A stretch of DNA of 64,000 nucleotides from a virus (IMGVR_UViG_3300030294_000003); one strand, 5' to 3'. Shown: positions 6,711-45,460, numbered from the stretch's first letter. A program made the numbers and translations. Notes: generated by a model not told the origin, from the letters alone.

Positions 6711-6740
6711 AAAAAGGTTTGCGAAAGTAAACCTTTTTTT
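6711..6740 (+). terminator. intrinsic terminator hairpin with GAAA tetraloop (copy 1)
   Basis: AAAAAGGTTTGC-GAAA-GTAAACCTTTTTTT, an 8-bp stem with a GNRA loop and a U-tract. Confidence 0.6.
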
Positions 6741-6757
6741 ATCTTTGTATCAAGAAG
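6735..6757 (+). promoter_or_regulatory. promoter -7 box P7 (6740-6747) fused to terminator hairpin
   Basis: TATCTTTGtatcaa immediately follows the T-tract of the hairpin. Confidence 0.45.
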
Positions 6758-6782
6758 TTAATCAATAAAACATAATAAAGTT

Positions 6783-6962
6783 ATGACCGAAAAAGATTAT
6801 AGTCCGTATTGCGGTAATAACATATCAAGAAACGAAAGAGGTGGCTGTGATAACCCTCGTACACGTTTCAATGGTAGTCAATTTGTTTGCCCTCGTTGTG
6901 GTTTTGTTTCACAATTTCCTGATGATTTCATTATTAGGTATAAAGCTAAATGGAATATTTAA
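6783..6962 (+). CDS. small zinc-ribbon protein
   Basis: 59-aa ORF, just below the track's 60-aa cutoff, with two Cys pairs (C-x-n-C and CPRC) and a -7 box at 6740. The track ORF 6841-7068 in another frame is rejected. Confidence 0.45.
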   Translation: MTEKDYSPYCGNNISRNERGGCDNPRTRFNGSQFVCPRCGFVSQFPDDFIIRYKAKWNI

Positions 6963-7012
6963 CAAATTCCATTTTCATAAGTCAATGTTAAACACTATCT
7001 TTGCATATCAAT
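6959..7012 (+). promoter_or_regulatory. promoter cassette P8 (-7 6996-7003)
   Basis: Near-identical copy of P2 with its leader. Confidence 0.55.
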
Positions 7013-7048
7013 TAGAAATAAAACAATATAAAATAACAAAAAGTTATG
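6959..7048 (+). repeat. duplicated promoter+leader segment, copy B
   Basis: See copy A. The downstream genes differ. Confidence 0.7.
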
Positions 7049-7402
7049 GTAAAGTTAAAACATTTTAATATAGATGAGGTTCTTAATTCTTATTTAGAAA
7101 CTTTATTATGGGTGGATGTTGAATTTGATGGGTATTCCATTATTGATGTTTGCGATGATTCAACTGAAATATCAAGATTAGATATTATCAACTTCATTAA
7201 AGAGATTGAAAAATCAAATGAAGCTATTGAAGAAGCGAATACCTATACTGATAGCTTATTAGGTCATAACTTCTTATTGAGTCGTAATGGACATGGGGCA
7301 GGATTTTTTGATGATAACAACGATGTGTTACAGGAAATTTGTAGGAAAACAAAAGAATGTAACATTTATTTGGGGGATGATAAACAAATACATATATTCT
7401 AA
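7046..7402 (+). CDS. hypothetical protein
   Basis: 118-aa acidic ORF with the duplicated cassette P8 upstream. Confidence 0.6.
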   Translation: MVKLKHFNIDEVLNSYLETLLWVDVEFDGYSIIDVCDDSTEISRLDIINFIKEIEKSNEAIEEANTYTDSLLGHNFLLSRNGHGAGFFDDNNDVLQEICRKTKECNIYLGDDKQIHIF

Positions 7403-7407
7403 TATTA

Positions 7408-7677
7408 ATGAATACGCCGAAAAAAGGTTCAACACAATTAAACAACATGAAAAAATCATTTTTGGTAGTATACGCATTAATATCTAATAATAATAATGAT
7501 AACTATACTATGGGTATTGACGTTGAATATGATGAAACGTTAATGATTGATGATAAAACATTAATTATTTTTACGGCTATATTGGTTAAACATCGCAATG
7601 AAAATACTAAAGGTCGTTTTAAAACTTGGGTATATGATACAGATGAAATATTTATAAAAACAATTTCTCAAATTTAA
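7408..7677 (+). CDS. hypothetical protein
   Basis: 89-aa ORF. Confidence 0.5.
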   Translation: MNTPKKGSTQLNNMKKSFLVVYALISNNNNDNYTMGIDVEYDETLMIDDKTLIIFTAILVKHRNENTKGRFKTWVYDTDEIFIKTISQI

Positions 7678-7728
7678 CAAATTCCATTTTAGAATATCAA
7701 AGTTAAATAATATCTTTGTATATCAATT
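7674..7728 (+). promoter_or_regulatory. promoter cassette P9 (-7 7711-7718)
   Basis: Consensus match. Confidence 0.55.
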
Positions 7729-7751
7729 TAATAAAGCAAATATAAAGTAAT

Positions 7752-7997
7752 ATGAAAATAGATGATTTTTTGAAAATATATAGTATTGAAACAATTGTTA
7801 AAGATAATCAAATTAACAATCGTGATTTATACTCTTCGGAAGAATTTAAAGCAAATATGAAATTGTGTAATACTAGTTTAATTGAGGTAGTTGAATATAA
7901 AAATATAAACAACTTTAATTCCACCACTTATGAAGTCATTTTTTATGATAATGATGATGAACTTTTATTTGAAACAGAAATTACATTAATTAAATAA
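7752..7997 (+). CDS. hypothetical protein
   Basis: 81-aa ORF with cassette P9 upstream. Confidence 0.55.
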   Translation: MKIDDFLKIYSIETIVKDNQINNRDLYSSEEFKANMKLCNTSLIEVVEYKNINNFNSTTYEVIFYDNDDELLFETEITLIK

Positions 7998-8006
7998 TAT
8001 TTAATT

Positions 8007-8306
8007 ATGAAAAACATTCAAGTTACAGGTAATTTATTTGGTGAAATGACAACACTAAAACAAATTAATATAGTTAAAGCTAAAAAGCTTTATGCTGATG
8101 GAATTACTGTATTTATTCAGTCATCAAATAAAATACCATTTCAACCTTATCAAAGTGTTTGCCCTATATCAAATCATTTGTTTAATTGTATGCATTCTTT
8201 TGATACAGATAGTGATTTATCCTTTAAAAGTCAATGCGAATCTTACTCATATTACAATTGTGATACCGAAAGAGGTACATATATTCACTATTTTGAAAAA
8301 ATTTAA
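8007..8306 (+). CDS. hypothetical protein
   Basis: 99-aa Cys-rich ORF. Confidence 0.5.
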   Translation: MKNIQVTGNLFGEMTTLKQINIVKAKKLYADGITVFIQSSNKIPFQPYQSVCPISNHLFNCMHSFDTDSDLSFKSQCESYSYYNCDTERGTYIHYFEKI

Positions 8307-8321
8307 CAAACTAAAAATATT

Positions 8322-8690
8322 ATGGAAAAAGAAATTAAAGGTGCTACTATTTTACATGCGGTTGTTGTTTTTGATGGAAATGTCAGTAACAATGATTTGG
8401 AAGAGGGGTTTGGCTCAATCACTTTAAAACGTGAAAATAGGGAATTTATTTTGGATATTGTTAATTCTAATTGGTTTTTCGATGGTGAAAAAACAGAGGT
8501 TGATTTAACGTTAGAAGTCGATTTAGAAGTGTTTGGGGATTGTAAATATGATTTAACAGATTTAGATTTACATTCAAGAGATTTGGAAGCTACTATTTTT
8601 ATCGGTGAAGTTGATGATATTTTAATTTCGGCAACCTTATTTGTTAAATTAGGTGAAATGACACAAGCAATTGATTTGAAATTAGATTAA
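8322..8690 (+). CDS. hypothetical protein
   Basis: 122-aa acidic ORF. Confidence 0.55.
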   Translation: MEKEIKGATILHAVVVFDGNVSNNDLEEGFGSITLKRENREFILDIVNSNWFFDGEKTEVDLTLEVDLEVFGDCKYDLTDLDLHSRDLEATIFIGEVDDILISATLFVKLGEMTQAIDLKLD

Positions 8691-8697
8691 ACATAAT

Positions 8698-8752
8698 TTA
8701 ACATATTCTATTTTGATATATCAATGTTAATGACTATCTTTGCATTACAATT
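8698..8752 (+). promoter_or_regulatory. promoter cassette P10 (-7 8735-8742)
   Basis: Consensus match. Confidence 0.5.
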
Positions 8753-8779
8753 TAATTAATTATATAAAAAAGTGGTATT

Positions 8780-9028
8780 ATGATATTCAACAAAAACGCA
8801 TCCGTATTATCAGACAATGGCGAAAAAGTCTTTTTAGTACCTGAAATTGAAGAGATTTTAACAATGGCTTATGACTATGATTATTCAAACAACAGTCGTA
8901 AAAATCGGTATTGTGATGAAGAGGTTTGTGATTGTTTTGATATTTCAGTTAATGAATTGAACCAAATGAAATATTTATTATCTTATGAATATAACACTGA
9001 TGAAAATGGTGGTCTGAAACAATTTTAA
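8780..9028 (+). CDS. hypothetical protein
   Basis: 82-aa ORF with cassette P10 upstream. Confidence 0.55.
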   Translation: MIFNKNASVLSDNGEKVFLVPEIEEILTMAYDYDYSNNSRKNRYCDEEVCDCFDISVNELNQMKYLLSYEYNTDENGGLKQF

Positions 9029-9032
9029 AAAA

Positions 9033-9087
9033 TTAACAAATTACATTTTGATATATTAATGTTAAACAGTATCTTTGTATTATAATT
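9033..9087 (+). promoter_or_regulatory. promoter cassette P11 (-7 9070-9077)
   Basis: Consensus match. Confidence 0.55.
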
Positions 9088-9110
9088 AATCAAATAATAA
9101 CAAAAACATT

Positions 9111-9344
9111 ATGAATACAGTAGCGTGTCAATTTGGTAATTTAAACAATCCGTTCATTAAAAAAGAAAACGAAAGCATATCATTATTTTGGTTGCATTGC
9201 ATTAGAGCATCAAGAGATGGTTATAATGGCGATGCAACTTTGTTTATAAATGGTAAGGCTGTTAGATACATGCTAAATGCAGATGTTAAAATATTAAATA
9301 AAAGTGTTCAGTGTACTTATGAAGTTATTAAACCTAAAAAATAA
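9111..9344 (+). CDS. hypothetical protein
   Basis: 77-aa ORF with cassette P11 upstream. Confidence 0.55.
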   Translation: MNTVACQFGNLNNPFIKKENESISLFWLHCIRASRDGYNGDATLFINGKAVRYMLNADVKILNKSVQCTYEVIKPKK

Positions 9345-9348
9345 TAAT

Positions 9349-9693
9349 ATGAAATCAATGAATCTTTGTTCTTATAAGACATCTCAATTTTGTTTAGCAC
9401 TTTTGAGACATGGTAAAAAATCAGATGAAGTACATGAAGAAATATGTTCTAAATTAGGCTTGTACGGTGTTAAATATTTTGGTCATGGTACTGCATACCA
9501 AAAAAGAAAAGTAGAGCATATTTGGCGTTCTATATTGTTTATACTCTATGATTTTACAGAGTTTTCCAATATGACAACGGTTGAACAAAAACAAGAAATT
9601 TCAAATTATTTAGAATTGAAAGTAGATAATAAAAATAATTTTGGTTTGAGTAAAAGTTATAAATCTATTAACAAATTACATTTTGATAATTGA
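9349..9693 (+). CDS. hypothetical protein
   Basis: Start at the internal ATG 9349, which avoids a 40-nt overlap of the track's 9304 start. The protein is 114 aa. Confidence 0.5.
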   Translation: MKSMNLCSYKTSQFCLALLRHGKKSDEVHEEICSKLGLYGVKYFGHGTAYQKRKVEHIWRSILFILYDFTEFSNMTTVEQKQEISNYLELKVDNKNNFGLSKSYKSINKLHFDN

Positions 9694-9722
9694 ATGTTAA
9701 ACCGTATCTTTGTACTATCAAT
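9668..9722 (+). promoter_or_regulatory. promoter cassette P12 (-7 9705-9712)
   Basis: Consensus match. Confidence 0.55.
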
Positions 9723-9767
9723 TAAAAGTAATTTAATCAAATAAAACAATTTAAAACCTATAAAATT

Positions 9768-10004
9768 ATGTATTACAGACTTTACGATAAACAGTGTAAA
9801 AGATATATGGCTACAGGCTATAATGCTAAATCAAAACAAGAATTAGTAGATGATTATAAAGACTATATTAACATGGATATTGATGAGAATGAAGAGGTTG
9901 AAATTGCAAATTTATCACTTAAAGATTCAATATCAATGATAATAGGAAATGATTTTTTTATTGATAAATCTAAAACAAAATTTGATGAAAATGAGTGTGA
10001 TTAA
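9768..10004 (+). CDS. hypothetical protein
   Basis: 78-aa ORF with cassette P12 upstream. Confidence 0.55.
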   Translation: MYYRLYDKQCKRYMATGYNAKSKQELVDDYKDYINMDIDENEEVEIANLSLKDSISMIIGNDFFIDKSKTKFDENECD

Positions 10005-10009
10005 ATTAT

Positions 10010-10064
10010 TTAACAAATTACATTAGTATATATCAATGTTAAAGACTATCTTTGTATTACAATA
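10010..10064 (+). promoter_or_regulatory. promoter cassette P13 (-7 10047-10054)
   Basis: Consensus match. Only short or split ORFs lie downstream. Confidence 0.5.
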
Positions 10065-10372
10065 AATCAAATAAAACAATTTATCGATTATGGAAAATAT
10101 AAAAAAAATGGAATTAGCAAAGGCTATGAGAAGAAAAGCTAATGAAAAAGAATATTAAGAACATTAAGTACTTCGTATAATAAATATATTAATACTATGA
10201 GAGATATTGAAATTGATTTACTAATCGAAGTATTAAATAATTGTAAACGTAAAGGGGCAAACTTTGTACAACTTCAAGGTACAATTATGTGTGAAGAAAC
10301 AGGAAATGAAATAATTTCGACAACAGAAAATCAAATTTAACAGATGAATTTTTAATTGATTTAGAAACAACG

Positions 10373-10388
10373 ATACTCGTTTGAGTAC
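10373..10388 (+). promoter_or_regulatory. palindromic element H2 (aTACTCgtttGAGTAc)
   Basis: Identical to H1. Confidence 0.4.
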
Positions 10389-10415
10389 TTAATTAATCAA
10401 AAATACTTTATTAAC

Positions 10416-10733
10416 ATGGAAGAAAAATTATATACGGAAGAGGATTTAAGAAACGCTTTTAAAGCAGGTAGATTATATGGCTATGATGATAGTATGGATG
10501 CGTTGAGTGAGGATGAATGGGTTAACGCATATAATTTAATACCTATAGTCATCGAAGAGAAAACCGTTCCTATCACATTGGGATGTATAAAAATAACATG
10601 TGGTTGGGAAAAATTTTGCGATGTAACAGGAGGTAATCATTGGATGATTGCTGAATGGACTGTTTCTGATAGTGAAATATTTCACGTTAAAATTTCGGAT
10701 GCTAAAAAATTAGGTTTTAATATTCAAAATTAA
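10416..10733 (+). CDS. hypothetical protein
   Basis: 105-aa ORF with palindromic element H2 upstream. Confidence 0.55.
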   Translation: MEEKLYTEEDLRNAFKAGRLYGYDDSMDALSEDEWVNAYNLIPIVIEEKTVPITLGCIKITCGWEKFCDVTGGNHWMIAEWTVSDSEIFHVKISDAKKLGFNIQN

Positions 10734-10738
10734 ATGTT

Positions 10739-10942
10739 ATGACAGAAATAAAGAAAGAACTAAAATTAATATTTCCCGATGCTGAATTTGATAATCATGA
10801 ATCGGATTTGTACGTGAGGTATACTCGTTGTATTTGGAAGTATTTAGACCGTGAATATATGTGGTTTGATAGTTGTTCTACTTTCATTAGTGAAGTTGAT
10901 GGTGAACGTTGGATTGAGATTCCTTTTGCTAATTGGGATTAA
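10739..10942 (+). CDS. hypothetical protein
   Basis: 67-aa ORF. Confidence 0.45.
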   Translation: MTEIKKELKLIFPDAEFDNHESDLYVRYTRCIWKYLDREYMWFDSCSTFISEVDGERWIEIPFANWD

Positions 10943-10957
10943 CAATAATTTTAAAAT

Positions 10958-11012
10958 TTAACAAATTCAATTAGTATAATCAAATGTTAATCCGTATCTT
11001 TACATTGTAATC
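10958..11012 (+). promoter_or_regulatory. promoter cassette P14 (-7 variant TATCTTTA 10995-11002)
   Basis: Consensus match except a G-to-A change at the last -7 position. Confidence 0.45.
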
Positions 11013-11041
11013 AAATTAATACAATCTAAATAAATAATAAT

Positions 11042-11278
11042 ATGGTAGTAGATAAAATAAGAGTTGAATACAGGGATAAAAAAACATTAAAATGGTTACA
11101 TGAGGATTTTCCTTTTGATGTTACAAAGGATTCTGAAAAGCAACTTAAAGAAGCTTGTGAACCATATAAGTATAATCAGGATGTTAGTTCAAGTTGGTTT
11201 ACGTTTATAAGTATTTCAGGTACATGGATGGAAATGAGGGTATATTATCCTTTTTTTAAAAGGTATGTAAAACTATAG
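11042..11278 (+). CDS. hypothetical protein
   Basis: 78-aa ORF with cassette P14 upstream. Confidence 0.55.
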   Translation: MVVDKIRVEYRDKKTLKWLHEDFPFDVTKDSEKQLKEACEPYKYNQDVSSSWFTFISISGTWMEMRVYYPFFKRYVKL

Positions 11279-11282
11279 TAAT

Positions 11283-11495
11283 ATGAAAAAAAAATATATA
11301 ATATTAGATGTTGAAAATAATCGATATTATTCATATATCGATTTGAGTTTAGAATTTTCTAAAAATTTAGAAAATGCACATAAATTTGATACTGAACAAG
11401 AAGCAGAAAAATTTATGGATGAGAATTTTAACGAATTAGACTCTTATTATCAATTAGTTGGTGTATATCATAAACACAGCCAAATATTTAACTAA
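11283..11495 (+). CDS. hypothetical protein
   Basis: 70-aa ORF. Confidence 0.45.
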   Translation: MKKKYIILDVENNRYYSYIDLSLEFSKNLENAHKFDTEQEAEKFMDENFNELDSYYQLVGVYHKHSQIFN

Positions 11496-11542
11496 TTTCA
11501 TTTCCATATATCATTGTTAAAGACTATCTTTGTATATCAATT
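11488..11542 (+). promoter_or_regulatory. promoter cassette P15 (-7 11525-11532)
   Basis: Consensus match. Confidence 0.5.
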
Positions 11543-11559
11543 AATAATTAAAACAAGTT

Positions 11560-11748
11560 ATGACAGTAAGAGAATTTATTGCAGAAATAAGCTTAATGAA
11601 AGATTCTTTACAGGATAAAGAAATTGTTATTAAAGCACCAAACGGATTATTATTTGAACCGTTTGTTAAATTTATTATGAAAGATGAACATATGATGCCT
11701 ATTTTTGATGCAGAGCATGTTGATAAAATTTTTATTACTTATAAATAA
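11560..11748 (+). CDS. hypothetical protein
   Basis: 62-aa ORF with cassette P15 upstream. Confidence 0.5.
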   Translation: MTVREFIAEISLMKDSLQDKEIVIKAPNGLLFEPFVKFIMKDEHMMPIFDAEHVDKIFITYK

Positions 11749-11763
11749 AAAACAAATAAACTT

Positions 11764-12267
11764 ATGTTAGAATTAAAACCTATTGTATTATCACTTGAAT
11801 ATCGTAAAGAATGGAACAAATCATCAAAGGATTTTTTTAATCTGTATGTTGATGGTAAAAAAGTAAATGATGCCATCTACAGAACAGGCATGTGGGACGG
11901 CAGAGTTAAGGATGGATATATTATGTTATTGAAATACGTTGAAGCGTTTTATTCAAAAGAAATACTTAAAATGAGTGGTAGTAATAAACCAAAGCATCTT
12001 GAGAGTCAGTGGTGTATTTTAAATGAAAAAGGTGAAGAAAAGGTTTGTTTTGAACCATATAATTCCCCTTATTTAATGGGTGGCGTAATTTATTCTATCA
12101 AATCCGATTATTTCAATATTGAAACAAATGAATTTTATTGCAACGCATCTTCTACCATGAATACAGATAATTATCTATTTTTGGAAAATAAATATGATAA
12201 AAATATTTTGAAACGTGGGGTTTTAAAAATAGAAAAGAAAACAGGTTTGTTTGAATTAATAAATTAA
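11764..12267 (+). CDS. hypothetical protein
   Basis: 167-aa ORF. Confidence 0.55.
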   Translation: MLELKPIVLSLEYRKEWNKSSKDFFNLYVDGKKVNDAIYRTGMWDGRVKDGYIMLLKYVEAFYSKEILKMSGSNKPKHLESQWCILNEKGEEKVCFEPYNSPYLMGGVIYSIKSDYFNIETNEFYCNASSTMNTDNYLFLENKYDKNILKRGVLKIEKKTGLFELIN

Positions 12268-12310
12268 TTATAATATTGATAAAAGTACAATATTGAATAA
12301 GATAAATAAT

Positions 12311-12365
12311 TTAACAAAATTGGTTTGTATATGTCGATGTTAAACCGTATCTTTGCATTATAATA
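12311..12365 (+). promoter_or_regulatory. promoter cassette P16 (-7 12348-12355)
   Basis: Consensus match. Confidence 0.55.
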
Positions 12366-12391
12366 ATTCAAACAAATAAACAAATACAATT

Positions 12392-12634
12392 ATGGAATTT
12401 AATTATAAATTTTGGAGTTGGAATAATGGAAAATATTATCAATCCTATCCTACTTTTTGGGGTAATACTGAAATTCGTTGGTTTTCAACAAAAGAAGCAG
12501 AGAAAAGTTGTGGCGAACTGTGGATTGACAATGTGCTAATTAAAACAGGTGAAGACTTAGGTTTTAATAATTATCATGACGGTACAATTGGATTGCTTAA
12601 ATTTGCGTTAGAAAATAACCTCTGTAAAAACTAA
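12392..12634 (+). CDS. hypothetical protein
   Basis: 80-aa ORF with cassette P16 upstream. Confidence 0.55.
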   Translation: MEFNYKFWSWNNGKYYQSYPTFWGNTEIRWFSTKEAEKSCGELWIDNVLIKTGEDLGFNNYHDGTIGLLKFALENNLCKN

Positions 12635-12641
12635 TATCATC

Positions 12642-12923
12642 ATGGAAGAAATAGTTGACCATTCATTTTGTAATTGTGGGGCTGTAACCGTTTATTTTGA
12701 AAACGGTGAAAACAATTCGCTAAAAAGAAAGAACTTAAAGAAGTTTGGACTATCTTTGAAATATAGTAATGAAATGCATTCTACATACGCTTGTAATCAT
12801 TGTGTTAATCATTACGGTTTAGATATATGCGAATGTGGAAGTGGTTTGAAACCTGAAAAATGTTGTAGAAAAGGAAGTCGTGAACAATTTGGTGAAAGCG
12901 TTAAATTTAGCTGTAAATTTTAG
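12642..12923 (+). CDS. SEC-C zinc-binding motif protein
   Basis: 93-aa ORF. CECGSGLKPEKCC matches the SecA C-terminal SEC-C motif (CxCxSGxxxxxCC), and there is an additional CxxC / CxxC pair. Confidence 0.5.
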   Translation: MEEIVDHSFCNCGAVTVYFENGENNSLKRKNLKKFGLSLKYSNEMHSTYACNHCVNHYGLDICECGSGLKPEKCCRKGSREQFGESVKFSCKF

Positions 12924-12935
12924 TAATATATTATT

Positions 12936-13136
12936 ATGAAGCAGATAAAATACGACCTATTCAATGTGGATTCTTATATGTGTAGTGTGTTCTTTTGTCC
13001 AAATATCGTTGGTGTTCTTTCAAAGGATGAAGAAAATTCTATTTTGAATTTAGTTAAAAAAGAACATTTTGAAATTGTTGATGGTTTTGGTGTATTATAT
13101 GGTTTAGTTATAAAAATAAATGCAGATTCATTATGA
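12936..13136 (+). CDS. hypothetical protein
   Basis: 66-aa ORF. Confidence 0.45.
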   Translation: MKQIKYDLFNVDSYMCSVFFCPNIVGVLSKDEENSILNLVKKEHFEIVDGFGVLYGLVIKINADSL

Positions 13137-13468
13137 TAAAAGATCTTATTAGTCAAATAGAAGCTATTAAAGAGCAGTTATACACTAAAATAAGTGAACT
13201 ACCCGACAATGCAAATATAAAGCGTTTAGATAGTGATTCTAATTGCTTTATTATTAATTCAAGTCAAATAATAGGAAAGCCATTTTCTCCTGAATACCAT
13301 GATTATAAACATCAATATAAACTTATCATTAAATATCTTAAAACGTGTGAAATTACCAACTTTGAAAATAGTTTAAATACTATAATTAAAACAAGTATTG
13401 TAAGGGATGGTAATAGAAGTGTTCGTTTAAACCCCGAAGTTGTTAAATATCTTAAAACAATTATTTAA
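13133..13468 (+). CDS. hypothetical protein
   Basis: 111-aa ORF with an ATGA overlap. Confidence 0.5.
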   Translation: MIKDLISQIEAIKEQLYTKISELPDNANIKRLDSDSNCFIINSSQIIGKPFSPEYHDYKHQYKLIIKYLKTCEITNFENSLNTIIKTSIVRDGNRSVRLNPEVVKYLKTII

Positions 13469-13518
13469 CAAATTCCATTTCATTATATCAAAGTTAAACC
13501 GTATCTTTGTGTATGAAT
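13464..13518 (+). promoter_or_regulatory. promoter cassette P17 (-7 13501-13508)
   Basis: Consensus match. Confidence 0.55.
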
Positions 13519-13549
13519 TAAATTAATAAATCAATTAAAATAATATTAT

Positions 13550-13912
13550 ATGAAAAAAGAAACGCTTGTAAACTGTTTAAATTGCGGACATGAATTTGTT
13601 TTAACAAGTTGGGGATATGATAAATTAGAAGATGATTGTGCTTTTTATACCGTTTGTCCTGAATGCGAAAGCAGTTTTGATATTTCAGATGAAGATGCTG
13701 AATCAATTTTAATACCTGATGGTACAGAAATCAAATTATCAGATGGTAGTATTTGTATTGTTGATGGGAATGATTTTGAAGATGTAGATTTTGAAGATGA
13801 TATACCTTTTGATAATATTAATTATCACGTTTGCCCTATTGAATTTACAAATGAAGAAATTTGGTCAGACCATTATATTTATGTGAGAAGAGTAGAATTC
13901 GAATTAAATTAA
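13550..13912 (+). CDS. zinc-ribbon protein
   Basis: 120-aa ORF with CLNCG..CPEC and a C-terminal CP motif. Cassette P17 is upstream. Confidence 0.55.
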   Translation: MKKETLVNCLNCGHEFVLTSWGYDKLEDDCAFYTVCPECESSFDISDEDAESILIPDGTEIKLSDGSICIVDGNDFEDVDFEDDIPFDNINYHVCPIEFTNEEIWSDHYIYVRRVEFELN

Positions 13913-13963
13913 CAAATTTCATTTCAGCCAATCAATTAAATTCACTACTTTTGTAATACAATT
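13909..13963 (+). promoter_or_regulatory. promoter cassette P18 (-7 variant TACTTTTG 13946-13953)
   Basis: The upstream box is conserved and the -7 box is a variant. Confidence 0.4.
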
Positions 13964-13987
13964 TAAAACAATAATAATAATAATCGT

Positions 13988-14215
13988 ATGAAAACATTAA
14001 TAACTGAAATGTCTCACAATATCGGACAAATTCGAGAAGAATTTGCAGATGAAGAAGTAAAACGAATGATTAAACAAACAGGTAAAAATTGGTCAAAATC
14101 TTATGAAGACCAAATGTTTGTTATTGATGAATCAGATGATGATGTTATTAATCCTTGTATAAGAAAAGAAGGACATTGTTTTGTATGTCAAGATAATTAT
14201 GTTGAAAATTGGTAA
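13988..14215 (+). CDS. hypothetical protein
   Basis: 75-aa ORF with cassette P18 upstream. Confidence 0.5.
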   Translation: MKTLITEMSHNIGQIREEFADEEVKRMIKQTGKNWSKSYEDQMFVIDESDDDVINPCIRKEGHCFVCQDNYVENW

Positions 14216-14238
14216 TTAAGCAAAATAAAACAATCGTT

Positions 14239-14400
14239 ATGGAAAAGAAAGTAGTAGTTGTAAGTTTTATCATTCCCGATAATGGTTTTGATATTGAACA
14301 TATTGAAGCAGCAATAAAAAGAGGATTAGCTTTTGGATTAGATGTTAAACATATTTGTAACCCAAATGAAATAGAAGAAATGGTAATAACCATTGCCTAA
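14239..14400 (+). CDS. hypothetical protein
   Basis: Internal ATG 14239 avoids the overlap of the track's 14209 start. The protein is 53 aa. Confidence 0.35.
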   Translation: MEKKVVVVSFIIPDNGFDIEHIEAAIKRGLAFGLDVKHICNPNEIEEMVITIA

Positions 14401-14412
14401 AAACTTTAATGA

Positions 14413-14613
14413 ATGAAAAAATATATTGTAATTGTTACGAGTGATGATATGTACCAACAGTTTACAACAGTTGATTGTGATACACAGGAAGTAGTTCATC
14501 AACATTCGTGTGGATATTGTTCAAGTGATGAAGAAGAAAATAATGAAGTAAGAAAAGCTTGTATTATGAGTAATGGTATTTACAAAACAATTAAAATTAG
14601 TGGTAGTTTTTAA
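14413..14613 (+). CDS. hypothetical protein
   Basis: 66-aa ORF. Confidence 0.4.
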   Translation: MKKYIVIVTSDDMYQQFTTVDCDTQEVVHQHSCGYCSSDEEENNEVRKACIMSNGIYKTIKISGSF

Positions 14614-14623
14614 CTAAATAATT

Positions 14624-14887
14624 ATGGAAATAAATACACTTGGAGAGCCTTTAAATAAAGAATTTAATAAATTTAATCCATCGTTTGATATTAATATCAA
14701 ATTGAATACTAAAAATATTCAAACTATTCTATGGTGGTTACATGTTCACAATGGTGAGGTTGATATGGATGTACAGGATGTTGCAGCGTATAAAAAGATT
14801 ATTAAAATGTTACCTGACAATGAGGAAAAAGGTAAAATTACAAGTCTTTATGATATTAATCATAAATTAAACAGTCAAGATTATTAA
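14624..14887 (+). CDS. hypothetical protein
   Basis: 87-aa ORF. Confidence 0.5.
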   Translation: MEINTLGEPLNKEFNKFNPSFDINIKLNTKNIQTILWWLHVHNGEVDMDVQDVAAYKKIIKMLPDNEEKGKITSLYDINHKLNSQDY

Positions 14888-14907
14888 TATAAATACATTA
14901 TTATATT

Positions 14908-15264
14908 ATGAGAAAATTTCATTTGGTAAGTAGAATTGGTGATGATGTTTTTGTTTGTGAAACATTGGTTGAAATGTGGAATTGTATTAATGATACTATT
15001 GAAGAACCTAAAAAATATGTTGTTGATGAAATGAACGGATATAGTTTTGTTGATTCTATAGGTGCTTATACTTTAATTGATATGTATAAAACGGAAGATG
15101 ATGTTCCCGAAACATTGTTCGAAGATGAAATAGCCATTAAAATAAAAAAAGAAGCAATTACATTCAAAACTTGGTGTGATGAAAATGTTTCAGACGGACG
15201 TGATTTAACAAATGAACAATTGTATGAGGAATTTATTAAACTCCATTATATAAAATGTGATTAA
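14908..15264 (+). CDS. hypothetical protein
   Basis: 118-aa acidic ORF followed by the GNRA hairpin terminator. Confidence 0.55.
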   Translation: MRKFHLVSRIGDDVFVCETLVEMWNCINDTIEEPKKYVVDEMNGYSFVDSIGAYTLIDMYKTEDDVPETLFEDEIAIKIKKEAITFKTWCDENVSDGRDLTNEQLYEEFIKLHYIKCD

Positions 15265-15339
15265 GAAAGGATGCAACAGAAATGTTAAGTACTAATTCGC
15301 TAAAATATATAATGGGGTTTTTATATTTATAAAATTAAC

Positions 15340-15372
15340 AAAAAGGGTTTGCGAAAGTGAATCCTTTTTTTT
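15340..15372 (+). terminator. intrinsic terminator hairpin with GAAA tetraloop (copy 2)
   Basis: AAAAAGGGTTTGC-GAAA-GTGAATCCTTTTTTTT, with the conserved TTTGCGAAAGT core and G:U/compensatory pairs. Confidence 0.5.
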
Positions 15373-15389
15373 ATCTTTGTACTATCAAA
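15368..15389 (+). promoter_or_regulatory. promoter -7 box P19 (15372-15379) fused to terminator hairpin
   Basis: TATCTTTGtactatcaa follows the hairpin T-tract. Confidence 0.45.
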
Positions 15390-15412
15390 TTAATTAAAAA
15401 ACAAGTAAAAAT

Positions 15413-15715
15413 ATGAGCACAATTAAACCTGATTATTATACTTTTAATGAACATTATAACCCTAAACAGATGTATTATGTTCTTTTGAATGGACAAACAT
15501 TTTTAGCTGTTTATAATAGATTTAAAAAGCCAAATAAAAGGGTACACGTTGAGGATTTTGAATATACAATTGAAATTACAACACTAAAAAGATTTAAACG
15601 AAATTGGATTGATGAAAATATTAATACAGTTGTTTATTTAAAGGTTATTGTGGGTACAAAAAAAGTAACGACTAATTTGCAAGATGGTGTTTTAATTCAA
15701 TTAGCAAAAATATAA
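15413..15715 (+). CDS. hypothetical protein
   Basis: 100-aa ORF with a -7 box at 15372. Confidence 0.55.
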   Translation: MSTIKPDYYTFNEHYNPKQMYYVLLNGQTFLAVYNRFKKPNKRVHVEDFEYTIEITTLKRFKRNWIDENINTVVYLKVIVGTKKVTTNLQDGVLIQLAKI

Positions 15716-15718
15716 ATT

Positions 15719-15964: not shown

Positions 15965-16015
15965 TAAATTTCATTTTGATATATTAATGTTAAATAGTAT
16001 CTTTGTATTATCAAT
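15961..16015 (+). promoter_or_regulatory. promoter cassette P20 (-7 15998-16005)
   Basis: Consensus match. Confidence 0.5.
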
Positions 16016-16032
16016 TTAATTAAAATATAATT

Positions 16033-16245: not shown

Positions 16246-16265
16246 CAACAAAAAAATAAATTATT

Positions 16266-16451: not shown

Positions 16452-16470
16452 ACAAATAAAAATAATCATC

Positions 16471-16716: not shown

Positions 16717-16728
16717 TTAATAATTAAT

Positions 16729-21386: not shown

Positions 21387-21425
21387 AAATGCAATCAATT
21401 AACATATTCTGTTTTGGTTGCATTT
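21387..21425 (+). terminator. inverted repeat (possible weak terminator)
   Basis: AAATGCAA..22 nt..TTGCATTT followed by CTTTTTT. Confidence 0.3.
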
Positions 21426-21453
21426 CTTTTTTATGTATCTTTGTATATCAAAT
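21426..21453 (+). promoter_or_regulatory. promoter -7 box P26 (21436-21443) after inverted repeat
   Basis: GTATCTTTGtatatcaa, with an inverted repeat (21387-21425) in place of the usual upstream box. Confidence 0.4.
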
Positions 21454-32423: not shown

Positions 32424-32451
32424 TAAAATATAATTTTAATTAACATATTTT

Positions 32452-32489
32452 AGCTAAATCCATTTGTATATTACATCGGATTTAGCTAT
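32452..32489 (+). terminator. inverted repeat hairpin (possible terminator)
   Basis: TAGCTAAATCC-N16-GGATTTAGCTA followed by TTTTT. Confidence 0.4.
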
Positions 32490-32505
32490 TTTTGTATCAT
32501 AATTT
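32484..32505 (+). promoter_or_regulatory. promoter -7 variant P38 (TATTTTTG 32488-32495) after inverted repeat
   Basis: Variant -7 box. Confidence 0.35.
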
Positions 32506-42985: not shown

Positions 42986-43001
42986 CTAAAATAAACTAAA
43001 A

Positions 43002-43484
43002 ATGTTGATCATGGGAAAATATAGAATAAAAATAGACTATAGTACTGGAGATAGTTTTAGTAACAGTTATGAATCTGACCTTATCGACCTTGAATGGGAT
43101 GATATTGAAGTAGCTAAAAAAAATTTGGGTAGAATTAAAGAGCATTACGAAATGTATCAAAGACTAAATAGCTATTTTAATAATATAAGTCAATTCGATA
43201 TAGTAAATGAATATAAAAATAAAGATTGGTTTGTTTCTGGGGAAAATAAGTTATTAAATATAAAAAATAACTGTATCATTACTAAAGAGGAAGCTGATAG
43301 AATTGGGGTGGACAACTTTAAGGTTGTAATAGATGTTGATATGGCCTCAAGATGTATAATATTTATTACAGATAATAAAACACCTATGCAGATAGGGTGC
43401 TTTTGGTGTGGATGTTTTGAACATCTTGATGGTGCCGAAATTATAATTGATCAAGATGATGATATTAAATTCATAGTAAATTAA
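43002..43484 (+). CDS. hypothetical protein
   Basis: 160-aa ORF with palindromic element H7 upstream. Confidence 0.55.
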   Translation: MLIMGKYRIKIDYSTGDSFSNSYESDLIDLEWDDIEVAKKNLGRIKEHYEMYQRLNSYFNNISQFDIVNEYKNKDWFVSGENKLLNIKNNCIITKEEADRIGVDNFKVVIDVDMASRCIIFITDNKTPMQIGCFWCGCFEHLDGAEIIIDQDDDIKFIVN

Positions 43485-43492
43485 ATAATATT

Positions 43493-43547
43493 TTAACAAA
43501 TTTCATTTTACTAGTCCAATTAAATAAATTATCTTTGTATTATAAAA
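43493..43547 (+). promoter_or_regulatory. promoter cassette P43 (-7 43530-43537)
   Basis: Consensus match. Confidence 0.55.
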
Positions 43548-43569
43548 TAAATTTAAATTAAAATATATT

Positions 43570-44013
43570 ATGACAAAAGAATTAGAATTAAAGAAAATAA
43601 TCCGTAATGAAAAATTTTTACGTGAAAGAATTTCTATCGCTCTTGAAAAGGAGTTACAACTACAAAAAAATTCTGGTAAAAAATTTATTACAACTGAAGA
43701 TGTTGATTCACTAATTAAACAAATTATAAAAGAAGAAAGTAATAAAACATTTACTTCTTGCAAGGCAAAACCAATGAAAATTGAAGAACAGGTTGTGGAA
43801 CATTTTACCCCAAATGATGAAAGTATTGGGTTTCTAACAGCAAACGAATTTTTATATTTAAGAATTCAAATTAGAAATGAATATGAGTCTGGTTGGTATC
43901 TAATGTTTGAAGGAGAAAGAATAATGATTAAGCCTAATGGCGATATCGAAAAATGGCCGAACAATTTATATAACACAGCGACGGATCTTTTGAATGAACT
44001 TTTTGGAATTTAA
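43570..44013 (+). CDS. hypothetical protein
   Basis: 147-aa ORF with cassette P43 upstream. Confidence 0.55.
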   Translation: MTKELELKKIIRNEKFLRERISIALEKELQLQKNSGKKFITTEDVDSLIKQIIKEESNKTFTSCKAKPMKIEEQVVEHFTPNDESIGFLTANEFLYLRIQIRNEYESGWYLMFEGERIMIKPNGDIEKWPNNLYNTATDLLNELFGI

Positions 44014-44027
44014 ATATAGTAAATATT

Positions 44028-44876
44028 ATGGGAAAAATTAACAGAACACAACTTGAAATTGAAAAACTACTTTTAGAACCTTTTAAAGTTGGTGAGGTAG
44101 TTAGTGTAGACGAACGTTTGGTAGGTAATAGAGGATCTTCCAAAACATCTGCTAAAATTATTGAGATTGATGGTGATGAAGTTGTTTTGGAAGCGTTCGG
44201 TGGTTATAAAGATAAAAAAACGTATAAAGTTCACATATCCAACTTAGGAAAAAGTATTTATTACGTTGGTTATTCCCCGATGGTAAGACCATCATATCGC
44301 TTAGAAACCATTAATTTCTCACTTGAATCAATTGTTTTTGATTGTGGTTTTGATAGACGTGAAAGAAAATTTAAACCAGATGAAAATATTGGTGAAATTA
44401 CTGTACCAGAATTGAATTGGAACCCATATGTAATTCAATCTGATGGTTCAAAATTTTATTATCAACGAGAGTTTGTTTGGACATTGGAGGATAAACAATC
44501 ATTTATTGATTCAATTTATAACAACATATCTTTAGGTAAGGTTATTTTAAGGGAACGTGGTTTTGAATGGAATAGACAACAGGCATTACTTGGAAATACG
44601 GTGTTTGGTTATAAAGATATTGTTGATGGAAAACAACGTTTGAACTGCATTCTATCGTTTTTACAGGATGAATTTCCAGATTCAAAAGGATTTTATTATT
44701 CTGAATTTTCAAAAGCATCCCAAAACCAATTTTTAAATCACCAATTGCTTGGCTATGCAAAATTAGATGAAAACGCATCTGATAAAGATGTTATCGATTG
44801 TTTCCTTAGAACAAACTTTTCAGGAGTACAAATGAGTAAAGAGCACTTAGAGTATATTAAGACTATTAAATTATAA
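44028..44876 (+). CDS. DUF262-like ParB/Srx-fold NTPase domain protein
   Basis: 282 aa. The C-terminal half has YQREFVW followed by IVDGKQRLNCILSF, matching the DUF262 hallmark xQRxxVW and (I/V)DGQQRLT. The N-terminal ~140 aa are unassigned, and no HNH/DUF1524 partner was seen. Confidence 0.55.
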   Translation: MGKINRTQLEIEKLLLEPFKVGEVVSVDERLVGNRGSSKTSAKIIEIDGDEVVLEAFGGYKDKKTYKVHISNLGKSIYYVGYSPMVRPSYRLETINFSLESIVFDCGFDRRERKFKPDENIGEITVPELNWNPYVIQSDGSKFYYQREFVWTLEDKQSFIDSIYNNISLGKVILRERGFEWNRQQALLGNTVFGYKDIVDGKQRLNCILSFLQDEFPDSKGFYYSEFSKASQNQFLNHQLLGYAKLDENASDKDVIDCFLRTNFSGVQMSKEHLEYIKTIKL

Positions 44877-44880
44877 TATC

Positions 44881-45417
44881 ATGGAAAAATATAAATTACT
44901 TGAAAAGGCCTATGAAATTGACCTAAGTAAAATTGATGAACGTTATGTGTATGAACGAGAAATTGCATATGCAGATAGCGTTGGTAAAGCTAAAACAAAA
45001 TTATTAAGTACGGCAAATTATAATGGAATGCAACTTTATATCGGCGATGATCTAACATATATTAATATACCTGTTATTAGAGCTAAGGATCATGATAAAT
45101 TCGAATTTGAGGGTAAGGGAGAAACCATGTATTCAATAAATGAAATACTTCATGATCGAGAGCGAATAACGAAATTAGACGAACTACTTAATAATGAAAA
45201 TATAAAATTCTGTTACATTAAGAAAGGTAGCTACTATAAACCAGGATCATGTGGATATACGGATTTTAAACACAGGGCGGGGGTATTTACAAAAGAAGAT
45301 GCTGTTCAAAGTGCTAAATCATGTGATGACCTTTGGATTATCCCAGTTATCATTGAAGAGCATAACGAGATGATAAATAAAGAGATTGAAGAACTACAAA
45401 CGAGGTTATTGAATTAG
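44881..45417 (+). CDS. hypothetical protein
   Basis: 178-aa ORF followed by the GNRA hairpin terminator. Confidence 0.55.
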   Translation: MEKYKLLEKAYEIDLSKIDERYVYEREIAYADSVGKAKTKLLSTANYNGMQLYIGDDLTYINIPVIRAKDHDKFEFEGKGETMYSINEILHDRERITKLDELLNNENIKFCYIKKGSYYKPGSCGYTDFKHRAGVFTKEDAVQSAKSCDDLWIIPVIIEEHNEMINKEIEELQTRLLN

Positions 45418-45430
45418 ATTAATATAAGTT

Positions 45431-45460
45431 AAAGGATTTGCGAAAGTAAGTCCTTTTCTT
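45431..45460 (+). terminator. intrinsic terminator hairpin with GAAA tetraloop (copy 3)
   Basis: AAAGGATTTGC-GAAA-GTAAGTCCTTTTCTTT, with the same core and covarying stem positions. Confidence 0.5.

What the first reader, a model, noticed from the sequence alone, without database searches (positions are those of the whole stretch)
6711..45460. Conserved GNRA-tetraloop terminator hairpin (3 copies) with compensatory stem changes, each fused directly to a -7 promoter box
At 6711-6740, 15340-15372 and 45431-45460 the core TTTGC-GAAA-GT is invariant. The flanking stem arms differ (AGGTTTGC/GTAAACCT, AGGGTTTGC/GTGAATCCT, AGGATTTGC/GTAAGTCCT) but retain pairing through G:U and compensatory substitutions. 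Each is followed by a U-tract and then immediately by TATCTTTG or TACTTTTG. Covariation indicates selection on RNA structure rather than simple sequence duplication. This is a terminator-promoter insulator unit replacing the usual upstream box.
Basis: seen in the sequence. Interest (0 to 1): 0.55.

Follow-up and report, generated by a model that had tools for sequence, protein, structure and literature searches.

The report
Terminator hairpins nested inside phage promoters
Three near-identical RNA hairpins in a large phage of Bacteroidota are most likely ordinary transcription stop signals, but each is built inside the next gene's promoter, so its "invariant" TTTG doubles as the promoter's -33 element; this is a compact variant of known parts, not a new kind of element.

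Summary
Hairpins at 6711-6738, 15340-15369 and 45431-45456 share TTTGCGAAAGT (3 copies; 0.05 expected), fold at about -13 kcal/mol (z -3.7 to -4.6), and each ends in a T-tract abutting a TAnnTTTG box.

They are probably intrinsic terminators fused to promoters, but they do not replace the usual upstream box. About 38 intergenic regions carry one promoter: TTAACA(-37), TTT(-24..-22), TATCTTTG. The hairpins sit inside it, in register, so the invariant TTTG is the Bacteroidota -33 element and the U-tract is the spacer before the -7 box.

A covariance model found no fourth copy in the window. It found two just upstream in the same genome and two in related contigs.
- One extra copy has an AGAA loop, so the GNRA loop is not invariant.
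- One copy is nearly decayed yet keeps the promoter register.

Covariation is modest: 3 pairs change on both sides, and 14-16 of 500 shuffles do as well. Strand asymmetry from G·U pairs supports an RNA role.

Nesting is general here: 6 of 8 strong + strand terminators abut a box, including three unrelated hairpins.

Function was not tested. I rate it a new variant of known kinds, of modest interest.

The parts
6711..6738 (+). Hairpin 1 (A5-GGTTTGC-GAAA-GTAAACC-T5). GC-containing stem 6716-6733, with TTTG at 6718-6721 in the 5' arm. U-tract 6734-6739.
   Evidence: 12 pairs, dG -13.3, z -4.6. Starts 2 nt after the TAA stop (6707-6709) of ORF 6521-6709.
6740..6747 (+). -7 box TATCTTTG of the promoter for ORF 6783-6962. 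TTTG lies 18 nt upstream and TTAACA at 6706-6711 (34 nt upstream, overlapping the upstream stop codon). Inferred TSS about 6752.
   Evidence: Box to ATG is 35 nt against a family median of 37. The -12..-5 position of the box is from PMC9723704.
15340..15369 (+). Hairpin 2 (A5-GGGTTTGC-GAAA-GTGAATCC-T5). GC-containing stem 15345-15364, TTTG at 15348-15351, U-tract 15365-15371.
   Evidence: 13 pairs, dG -13.6, z -4.5. Top CM hit, 71.7 bits. Three G.U pairs; the reverse strand folds at only -3.3.
15372..15379 (+). -7 box TATCTTTG of the promoter for ORF 15413-15715. Exact family register: TTAACA (15335-15340)-N7-TTTG-N20-box.
45431..45456 (+). Hairpin 3 (A3-GGATTTGC-GAAA-GTAAGTCC-T3). GC-containing stem 45434-45453, TTTG at 45437-45440, U-rich tract TTTTCTT 45454-45460.
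   Evidence: 11 pairs, dG -13.1, z -3.7. Lies 14 nt after the stop of ORF 44881-45417. Identical in 4 strain variants.
45461..45468 (+). -7 box TACTTTTG of the promoter for ORF 45513-45767. TTTG lies 20 nt upstream. No TTAACA in register.
21387..21443 (+). Unrelated nested terminator-promoter. Hairpin 21387-21425 encloses the TTAACA box (21399-21404) in its loop and TTTG (21413-21416) in its 3' arm. CTTTTTTATG follows, then TATCTTTG (21436-21443).
   Evidence: dG -13.3, z -4.9. TTTG-N19-box.
32451..32494 (+). Unrelated nested terminator-promoter after the SPFH/Band-7 gene. Hairpin 32451-32488, with TTTG (32463-32466) 20 nt before the box TATTTTTG (32487-32494). The box is itself the U-tract.
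   Evidence: dG -15.8, z -5.7. Next ORF 32523-32711.
57450..57491 (+). Unrelated nested terminator-promoter of the second promoter class. Hairpin 57450-57473 with CTTG in its loop, then A+T8+G, then TACATTTG (57484-57491).
   Evidence: dG -11.5, z -2.4. CTTG-N20-box.
6959..7003 (+). Example of the ordinary, hairpin-free family promoter: TTAACAAATTCCATTTTCATAAGTCAATGTTAAACAC-TATCTTTG. It is one of 38 + strand copies with TTAAC exactly 37 nt before the box (that count includes nested site 2 and the 21436 promoter; 36 are hairpin-free).
   Evidence: 13 exact matches to the 23-base pattern against 0.00 expected.
50147..50178 (+). Non-nested comparison terminator (A7CCCATAAGC...CTTGTGGGT6). It lies upstream of, not inside, the CTTG-N20-TACATTTG promoter at 50222.
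   Evidence: dG -16.4, z -6.0.
56490..56526 (+). Non-nested comparison terminator (GAATTGCCAGTTTGTGAAAATCGGTAATTC+T7) with no adjacent box.
   Evidence: dG -11.1, z -4.2.

Best explanation
Each element is a Rho-independent terminator nested inside a promoter of the type read by the main sigma factor of Bacteroidota.

Shown:
- The window comes from a large (contigs up to 263 kb), 27% GC phage related to Cellulophaga phages.
- Its small + strand genes are each preceded by one highly repeated promoter: TTAACA at -37, TTT(G) at -24..-21 and TATCTTTG, counted from the start of the -7 box.
- In a sub-family of these promoters, the ~29 nt between TTAACA and the -7 box is A(3-5)-GG(N)TTTGC-GAAA-GTRAR(N)CC-U(6-7).
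- The 5' arm of the stem carries the -33 TTTG in its normal register, and the U-tract is the T-rich spacer abutting the -7 box.

Inferred:
- RNA polymerase arriving from the upstream gene transcribes the hairpin and U-tract and releases the transcript 1-7 nt before the -7 box.
- The same DNA, as duplex, recruits a fresh sigma-A holoenzyme that starts about 5 nt after the box, 28-44 nt before the next start codon.
- The unit therefore ends one transcript and starts the next within about 45 nt. This insulates the downstream promoter from read-through at no cost in genome length.

The three window copies, two more just upstream of the window and two in related contigs are paralogs or orthologs of one such unit. 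Their invariant core reflects three things: the -33 element, a stable C(GAAA)G loop, and shared descent.
For: - Hairpins and U-tracts.
- Non-chance recurrence: (3 copies against 0.05 expected).
- Promoter family and register: 38 copies with TTAAC at exactly -37; site 2 is TTAACA-N7-TTTG-N20-box; four further copies in the same register.
- Box-to-ATG distance of the hairpin promoters is 28-44 nt against a family median of 37.
- TTTG N18-20 before the box at all three sites.
- Published definition of the Bacteroidota promoter (TTTG at about -33; TAnnTTTG at -12..-5): PMC7366714 and PMC9723704.
- The same core+T-tract+box pattern in bacterial genomes is almost exclusive to Bacteroidota and mostly lacks a hairpin, so it is a promoter signature.
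- The structure is RNA-level and strand-specific (+ strand -12.3 to -12.8 against -3.2 to -7.6 kcal/mol for the reverse complement, owing to 1-3 G.U pairs). The CM scores 72 bits on the + strand and 22 on the - strand.
- Pairing is maintained across 7 copies (97.4% paired, 3 pairs changed on both sides, 14-16/500 shuffles as good).
- These are almost the only strong terminator-like elements on the coding strand.
- Nesting is systematic. 6 of 8 strong + strand terminators end -2..+10 nt from a box (P about 2e-5 against intergenic positions). Three of them are unrelated in sequence.
- Independent look-alikes with the same layout between genes occur in an IMG/VR contig and a Mucilaginibacter chromosome.
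- Three terminators run straight into TACATTTG boxes in cultured Cellulophaga phage phi4:1.
Against: - There are no transcript data, so neither termination nor initiation at these sites has been observed.
- The GC-containing stems are short and weak by E. coli standards: 7-8 bp with 3 G-C pairs, -7.3 to -8.8 kcal/mol at 37 C without the A/U extension. Efficiency could be low.
- In the phage's own promoter family the base at -21 is not a conserved G; only TTT at -24..-22 is. [quoted passage not shown] The weight of 'TTTG = -33' therefore rests on register and on the general Bacteroidota consensus.
- Site 1 has an 18-nt spacer and TTAACA 3 nt out of register. Site 3 lacks TTAACA.
- One paralog (L326 3176-3220) has a nearly non-folding stem, so the structure is not always maintained.
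- The covariation statistics are modest, and the copies are related by descent.
Confidence: 0.68

Rival explanations
1. The hairpin is an RNA 3'-end or processing element and not an efficient terminator. It would protect the upstream mRNA from 3' exonucleases, act as a pause site, or be a regulated attenuator that a phage antiterminator overrides later in infection. The adjacent promoter would act independently.
For: The GC-containing stems are weak at 37 C (-7.3 to -8.8 kcal/mol). Only 5 of about 40 early-type promoters in the window carry a hairpin (the three GAAA sites plus 21436 and 32487), so most transcription units read through anyway. The structure is + strand RNA-specific, which fits any RNA-level role.
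Against: A 6-7 nt U-tract directly follows every stem and is conserved in all 7 copies. A stabiliser or processing site does not need one. The A-tract/U-tract symmetry and the position just after stop codons are the classic terminator layout. No antiterminator gene was identified.
Confidence: 0.14
2. The hairpin has no function of its own. One promoter variant that happened to contain an inverted repeat was copied several times, and the pairing persists only because the copies are young.
For: The copies are clearly paralogous: shared TTAACAAAAAGG...TTTG...box, 87% mean column identity. One copy is decayed to -3.9 kcal/mol. The covariation signal is within the range related sequences can give without constraint (tool caveat).
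Against: 19 of the 21 cells in the alignment that differ from the commonest pair still form a standard pair. They include a C-G to U-A switch, a G-C/G-U/A-U series and an A-U/G-C exchange. Three hairpins of unrelated sequence occupy the same place in other promoters, and 6 of 8 terminators are nested. Folding z-scores are -3.7 to -4.6.
Confidence: 0.09
3. The inverted repeat acts in DNA, either as an operator for a dimeric repressor or activator covering the -33 to -7 region of a few promoters, or as an N4-type hairpin promoter for a phage RNA polymerase.
For: The repeat overlaps the core promoter, where operators usually sit. The ordinary family promoters at 1-20 kb also carry an inverted repeat, TTTAAC...GTTAAA, around the same region.
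Against: The arms are not Watson-Crick symmetric. Every copy has an invariant G.T plus 0-2 further G.T positions, so the reverse strand folds 5-9 kcal/mol worse and the DNA half-sites differ. The substitutions seen are the ones RNA pairing tolerates, not ones that keep a protein half-site. The conserved U-tract is unexplained by this model. No virion-RNAP gene was looked for or found in the window.
Confidence: 0.04

Closest known systems
Canonical Rho-independent (intrinsic) terminators with GNRA or UNCG tetraloops, including A-tract/U-tract 'bidirectional-looking' terminators
   Same: A short G-C-containing stem, a 4-nt GAAA loop closed by C-G, and a U-tract immediately 3'. An A-tract 5' extends the stem. 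They sit just after stop codons and work as RNA on the coding strand.
   Different: The whole hairpin lies between the -33 and -7 elements of the next promoter. One stem arm is constrained to carry TTTG, and the U-tract is the promoter spacer. The stems are AU/GU-rich (3 G-C pairs). The GNRA loop is not fixed across paralogs (AGAA in one).
Bacteroidota sigma-A (sigma-ABfr) promoters: TTTG at about -33 and TAnnTTTG at -7 (Bayley et al. 2000, as cited in PMC7366714; F. psychrophilum TSS map, PMC9723704)
   Same: The -7 box is TATCTTTG or TACTTTTG. TTTG lies 18-20 nt upstream. The 5' UTR is about 30-45 nt. The same core+box pattern is found almost only in Bacteroidota genomes.
   Different: The spacer is a self-complementary terminator. 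The phage family adds a strongly conserved TTAACA at -37 from the box that is not part of the published host consensus.
Tandem terminator-then-promoter junctions in phage early regions and phage 'morons' (a gene with its own promoter and terminator)
   Same: One transcript ends and the next starts within an intergenic gap. Site 3 follows a gene whose homologs occur in non-syntenic contexts in many phages, which is moron-like.
   Different: In the usual arrangement the terminator sits upstream of the whole promoter. Examples are window 50147-50178 followed by the promoter at 50222, and locus L325. Here the two are superimposed.
Phage N4 early promoters
   Same: A few copies of a conserved small hairpin sit at promoters in the early region of a phage.
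   Different: N4 hairpins have 5-7 bp stems with 3-nt loops and act in DNA on the template strand. Here the pairing relies on G.U, is followed by a U-tract and a host-type -7 box, and is RNA-strand-specific. I did not test for a virion RNA polymerase gene.

Membership tests
Intrinsic (Rho-independent) terminator | Stable stem-loop with G-C pairs and a short loop | tested here: met
   11-13 pairs including 3 G-C, 4-nt loop, dG -13.1 to -13.6, z -3.7 to -4.6. The core stems alone give -7.3 to -8.8 at 37 C and -11.7 to -13.3 at 15 C.
Intrinsic (Rho-independent) terminator | U-tract immediately 3' of the stem | tested here: met
   T6, T7 and TTTTCTT directly after the GC-containing stem. Conserved in all 7 copies.
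Intrinsic (Rho-independent) terminator | Lies downstream of a gene on the transcribed strand, and the structure is specific to that strand | tested here: met
   2, 76 and 14 nt after stop codons of + strand ORFs. The reverse complement folds 5-9 kcal/mol worse.
Intrinsic (Rho-independent) terminator | Transcript 3' ends map to the U-tract | not testable with these tools
   Needs term-seq, 3'-RACE or in vitro transcription.
Bacteroidota sigma-A promoter (-33 TTTG / -7 TAnnTTTG) | TAnnTTTG box | tested here: met
   TATCTTTG at 6740 and 15372; TACTTTTG at 45461.
Bacteroidota sigma-A promoter (-33 TTTG / -7 TAnnTTTG) | TTTG about 19-21 nt upstream of the box | tested here: met
   Spacers of 18, 20 and 20 nt; 20 nt in the four other copies. 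Site 1 is 1 nt short of the usual range.
Bacteroidota sigma-A promoter (-33 TTTG / -7 TAnnTTTG) | Transcription starts about 5 nt after the box | not testable with these tools
   Position only: the box ends 33-44 nt before the next ATG, like the 36 ordinary family promoters (median 37).
This phage's repeated promoter family (TTAACA-N7-TTTn-N20-TATCTTTG) | TTAACA exactly 37 nt before the box, and TTT at -24..-22 | tested here: inconclusive
   Site 2 is exact. Site 1 has TTAACA at 34 nt and TTTG shifted by 2. Site 3 has the TTT register but no TTAACA and a TACTTTTG box. The four copies outside the window are all exact.
GNRA tetraloop hairpin as a conserved structural motif | Loop G-N-R-A conserved across homologs | tested here: not met
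   GAAA in 6 of 7 copies, but AGAA in the strongly folding paralog L326 858-902.
Any curated RNA family (Rfam 15) | Match at the gathering threshold | tested here: not met
   0 matches in the whole window. No tRNA or tmRNA.
Palindromic DNA operator | Watson-Crick symmetric half-sites whose sequence is conserved | tested here: not met
   There are 1-3 G.T positions per stem. The arms vary by A<->G opposite T, which breaks DNA symmetry but keeps RNA pairing.

The most novel reading that the evidence does not exclude
The nesting is a functional 'terminate-and-restart' module and not just economy of space. Polymerase releases its RNA in the U-tract a few bases before the -7 box. Placing the release point inside the next promoter could let the same, still DNA-associated polymerase re-bind sigma and re-initiate at once. 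That would reset transcript boundaries, giving short, defined mRNAs, without losing polymerase flux. It could be a general design rule in phages of Bacteroidota, whose T-rich -7 box and spacer make the fusion easy.
Probability: 0.12. Interest if true: 0.6.

Novelty: new variant of a known kind. Interest (0 to 1): 0.33.

Why it matters
Transcription signals of phages that infect Bacteroidota are poorly mapped. This window gives a clean, repeated promoter (about 38 copies) and a small set of terminators.

Most of those terminators are superimposed on promoters, so that one 45-nt stretch both ends and starts transcripts. Three practical points follow.
- It explains why a stem arm looks 'invariant': it is read twice, as RNA and as promoter DNA. 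This is a caution for covariation-based RNA discovery in intergenic DNA.
- It offers compact, portable terminator-promoter parts for Bacteroidota genetics.
- Terminator or promoter finders that treat the two signals as separate will mis-annotate such units.

If termination and re-initiation prove to be mechanistically coupled, it would be a natural test bed for polymerase recycling.

Tried and rejected
- DNA similarity of 49 kb of the window to 50,697 phage records: no match. The lineage was identified only through a 710-aa protein.
- Orthologous intergenic regions via the gene upstream of site 3: the search for related loci in IMG/VR found nothing. Its 40-72% homologs sit in unrelated, non-syntenic phages without the unit. 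Strain variants are identical at site 3, so they carry no information.
- Core+box pattern in IMG/VR: 77 loci, of which only L055/L060 is a real hairpin and the rest are chance matches, mostly non-folding.
It gave two true relatives (L169, L198), a few imperfect look-alikes and many plain promoters.
- Same pattern in 185,579 species genomes: 119 hits, nearly all Bacteroidota, mostly hairpin-free promoters. I rejected the idea that this is a widespread conserved RNA.
- Family-promoter pattern in IMG/VR: 3 contigs at 36% GC with only sporadic matches and no hairpin variant.
- CM search of 100 kb of Cellulophaga phage phi4:1 and 50 kb of LR756500.1: no copy. LR756500.1 also lacks the promoter family.
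- Rfam and tRNA scans: nothing.
- Pfam and PHROGs on ten flanking small proteins: no informative hit, so there is no clue why these particular genes are bracketed.
- Operator/DNA-palindrome reading: rejected on strand asymmetry.
- N4-type hairpin promoter: considered from memory. I rejected it because of the U-tract, the G.U dependence and the host-type -7 box.
- Literature searches for terminators overlapping Bacteroidota or phage promoters found no description. The searches were few, so absence is weak evidence.

Full report
**1. The observation**

- Site 1 reads AAAAA-GGTTTGC-GAAA-GTAAACC-TTTTTT, then TATCTTTG at 6740.
- Site 2 reads AAAAA-GGGTTTGC-GAAA-GTGAATCC-TTTTTTT, then TATCTTTG at 15372.
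- Site 3 reads AAA-GGATTTGC-GAAA-GTAAGTCC-TTTTCTT, then TACTTTTG at 45461.

The 11-mer TTTGCGAAAGT occurs exactly three times, always on the + strand. Dinucleotide shuffles give 0.05. Each site folds into an 11-13 bp hairpin of -13.1 to -13.6 kcal/mol, with z from -3.7 to -4.6. The generic terminator scan picks out all three. All are intergenic: 2, 76 and 14 nt after a stop codon and 33-44 nt before the next ATG.

**2. The surrounding genome**

The window is 26.9% GC, and essentially all genes are small and on the + strand. It has no DNA-level relative among 50,697 phage records. A 710-aa protein places it near Cellulophaga phages phi4:1 and phi17:2 (50-56% identity) and an uncultured 462-kb phage (62%). 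Identical proteins occur on metagenomic contigs up to 263 kb. It is therefore a large phage of a Flavobacteriia-like host.

**3. The hairpins sit inside a repeated promoter**

TAnnTTTG, the Bacteroidota -7 box, is over-represented: 179 copies against 128 expected. TATCTTTG alone occurs about 45 times on the + strand. Nearly all those copies belong to one long conserved intergenic unit, roughly TTTAACAAATTnCATTTTnATATATCAATGTTAAAnnn-TATCTTTG-TATTATCAA.

In 38 copies TTAAC lies exactly 37 nt before the box, and the triplet TTT at -24..-22 from the box is conserved. A 23-base version of the pattern matches 13 times against 0.00 expected. Published work defines the promoter of the primary sigma factor of this phylum as TTTG near -33 and TAnnTTTG at -12..-5 (PMC7366714; PMC9723704).

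Site 2 reads TTAACA-N7-TTTG-N20-TATCTTTG, which is exactly the family register. Site 1 has the same parts compressed by 1 nt and 2 nt. Site 3 has TTTG-N20-box but no TTAACA. The hairpin promoters sit 28-44 nt from the next ATG, like ordinary family members (median 37).

So the hairpin does not replace the usual upstream box. It is nested between the upstream box and the -7 box. Its 5' arm carries the -33 element and its U-tract serves as the spacer.

**4. The invariant TTTG as a promoter signal**

I scanned 185,579 species genomes for core + T-tract + box and got 119 hits, almost all in Bacteroidota. In most of them the stem extends only 2-5 bp beyond the loop, so they are plain promoters that happen to have CGAAAGT after the -33 TTTG.

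A few hits are true hairpins with the same layout between genes:
- an IMG/VR contig (L055/L060), with outer stem TCC/GGA instead of GG/CC;
- a Mucilaginibacter chromosome (L251), with outer stem GCCGC/GCGGC.

These look like independent solutions to the same constraint: TTTG in the 5' arm, a C(GAAA)G loop, and U-tract plus box.

**5. Further copies**

A covariance model built from the three sites and two relatives finds only those three in the window with filters off (60-72 bits). The next hit, at 22 bits, is the reverse strand of site 2.

In the 9.5 kb just upstream of the window, fetched from a metagenomic contig, it finds two more copies at 57-58 bits.
- L326 858-902 is TTAACAAAAAGGGTTTGC-AGAA-GTAAGCCC-TTTTCTG-TATCTTTG (-16.7 kcal/mol). 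Its loop is not GNRA.
- L326 3176-3220 is TTAACAAAAATGGTTTGT-GAAA-ATGAATCC-TTTTCTT-TACTTTTG. The closing pair has switched C-G to U-A, but the stem is nearly gone (-3.9 kcal/mol, z -0.4).

Both keep TTAACA-N7-TTTG-N20-box exactly. Two short contigs from related 26% GC phages (L169, L198) carry another copy, also in exact register.

The family is narrow, however. There is nothing in phi4:1 or LR756500.1, and IMG/VR holds no copy from a related phage.

**6. Covariation**

The MAFFT alignments are structurally consistent.
- With five sequences: 98.2% of cells pair, 2 pairs change on both sides, and 74/500 column shuffles do as well.
- With seven sequences: 97.4% pair, 3 pairs change on both sides (C-G/U-A; G-C/G-U/A-U; A-U/G-C/G-U), and 14-16/500 shuffles reach the observed values. 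Sliding the register drops pairing to <=69%.

Most variation is A<->G opposite U. The tool's own caveat applies: related sequences can reach such values without constraint. I read this as suggestive but not decisive.

Strand asymmetry is stronger evidence for an RNA role. The + strand folds at -12.3 to -12.8 kcal/mol, against -3.2 to -7.6 for the reverse complement, because each stem uses 1-3 G.U pairs. This also argues against a DNA palindrome or operator.

**7. Nesting is a habit of this phage**

A systematic catalogue of hairpin plus T-tract elements shows eight strong ones on the coding strand. Six end -2 to +10 nt from a TAnnTTTG box.
- Against intergenic positions, P is about 2e-5.
- Counting the three paralogs once leaves 4 of 6, which by my own arithmetic is still about 1e-3.

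Besides the three sites, the nested ones are:
- 21387-21425, with TTAACA in the loop and TTTG in the 3' arm, N19 to TATCTTTG (-13.3 kcal/mol, z -4.9);
- 32451-32488, with TTTG-N20-TATTTTTG, where the box itself is the U-tract (-15.8 kcal/mol, z -5.7);
- 57450-57473, with CTTG in the loop, N20 to TACATTTG.

Two terminators are not nested: 50147-50178 and 56490-56526. In cultured phi4:1, three terminators run into TACATTTG boxes 9-13 nt after the T-tract starts.

**8. Mechanism**

*Shown:*
- a terminator-like RNA structure on the coding strand just after stop codons;
- promoter elements in the correct register and at the correct distance from the next gene;
- paralogy of the copies;
- systematic nesting.

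*Inferred:* polymerase from the upstream gene terminates in the U-tract 1-7 nt before the -7 box, and a new holoenzyme initiates about 5 nt after the box. The unit thus ends one transcript and starts the next within about 45 nt, shielding the promoter from read-through.

*Not shown:* any transcript end or start. The core stems are weak at 37 C (-7.3 to -8.8 kcal/mol) and firmer at 15 C (-11.7 to -13.3).

**9. Comparison and novelty**

The parts are known: intrinsic terminators with GNRA loops, and the Bacteroidota -33/-7 promoter. No Rfam family matches. What is unusual is the superposition, with the terminator lying inside the promoter spacer and the -33 element in the stem. The usual layout is tandem, and it is also present here at 50147 followed by 50222, and in locus L325.

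A few literature searches found no description of this arrangement. The searches were limited, so this is weak evidence of novelty. I class the finding as a new variant of known kinds, of modest interest.

**10. Limits**

- Only about 84 kb of a >=263-kb genome was examined.
- The flanking genes are uninformative ORFans, so it is unknown why these genes are bracketed.
- Function is entirely inferred.

Noticed in passing
window 1-44000, + strand (e.g. 6959-7003, 9033-9077, 16729-16773, 43493-43537): A ~55-nt promoter unit is repeated about 38 times with TTAAC exactly 37 nt before TATCTTTG. The conserved TTAACA is not part of the published Bacteroidota promoter consensus. It could be a site for a phage or host factor, or an UP-like element.
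   Followed up: partly
window 1-20000 versus 21000-44000: Family promoters in the first 20 kb carry an inverted repeat, TTTAAC(-38)...GTTAAA(-11), bracketing the -33 region. Promoters from about 21 kb onward keep TTAACA but lose GTTAAA. This suggests two sub-classes, possibly temporal.
   Followed up: no
window 36190, 48429, 50222, 53646, 57484, 63396: A second promoter class appears in the right-hand part of the window: (T/C)TTG-N19-20-TAC(A/T)TTTG (ATTG at 53646), preceded by TTGTTAA at three of the sites (50222, 53646, 63396). It sits upstream of larger genes (GHKL ATPase, the 710-aa DUF8224 protein, RNA ligase).
   Followed up: partly
window 21387-21443, 32451-32494, 57450-57491: Three further strong terminator hairpins, unrelated in sequence to the finding, are also nested in -33/-7 promoters. 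At 32487 the -7 box TATTTTTG is itself the U-tract.
   Followed up: yes
window 56490-56526: The stand-alone terminator GAATTGCCAGTTTGTGAAAATCGGTAATTC+T7 has an inner stem-loop, GTTTGTGAAAAT, that matches the decayed paralog L326 3176-3220 (GGTTTGTGAAAATG). This could be coincidence or a distant family member.
   Followed up: no
window 44028-45417: A GmrSD_N/DUF262-domain gene (44028-44876) is followed 5 nt later by a 178-aa gene. Homologs of the 178-aa gene (40-72% identity) occur in many unrelated, non-syntenic phage contigs. The pair looks like a mobile, moron-like cassette that ends at hairpin 3.
   Followed up: partly
window 53747-55879: A 710-aa protein (DUF8224) has full-length homologs in 549 phage records from very different hosts, including Cellulophaga phi4:1 gp180, Ralstonia phiRSL1, Salmonella, Klebsiella and Bacillus phages. 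It is a widely conserved large-phage protein of unknown function.
   Followed up: no
loci L094, L149, L194, L209, L266, L313, L315 and others (Bacteroidales / Cryptobacteroides MAGs): A conserved promoter-like string, CATTTCGTTCC(T/G)nTTT-TTTGCGAAAGTAGCGAT(T/A)ATTTTTATAACTTTG-CAAAGAT, recurs across dozens of Bacteroidales genomes without forming a hairpin. It probably belongs to one conserved gene or mobile element.
   Followed up: no
L325 8940-9015 (IMG/VR contig 3300045988_135603, 167 kb, 36% GC): An unrelated viral contig carries the same TTAACAAATTACATTTG-N19-TATCTTTG promoter, with a terminator hairpin placed just upstream of it (tandem, not nested). The TTAACA-type promoter is therefore not unique to this phage lineage.
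   Followed up: no
L326 858-902 (about 8.7 kb upstream of window position 1): This paralog of the hairpin unit lies between a + strand gene (389-844) and a - strand gene (1060-1419). Here it sits at a convergent gene junction, near what may be the start of the long + strand gene array.
   Followed up: no
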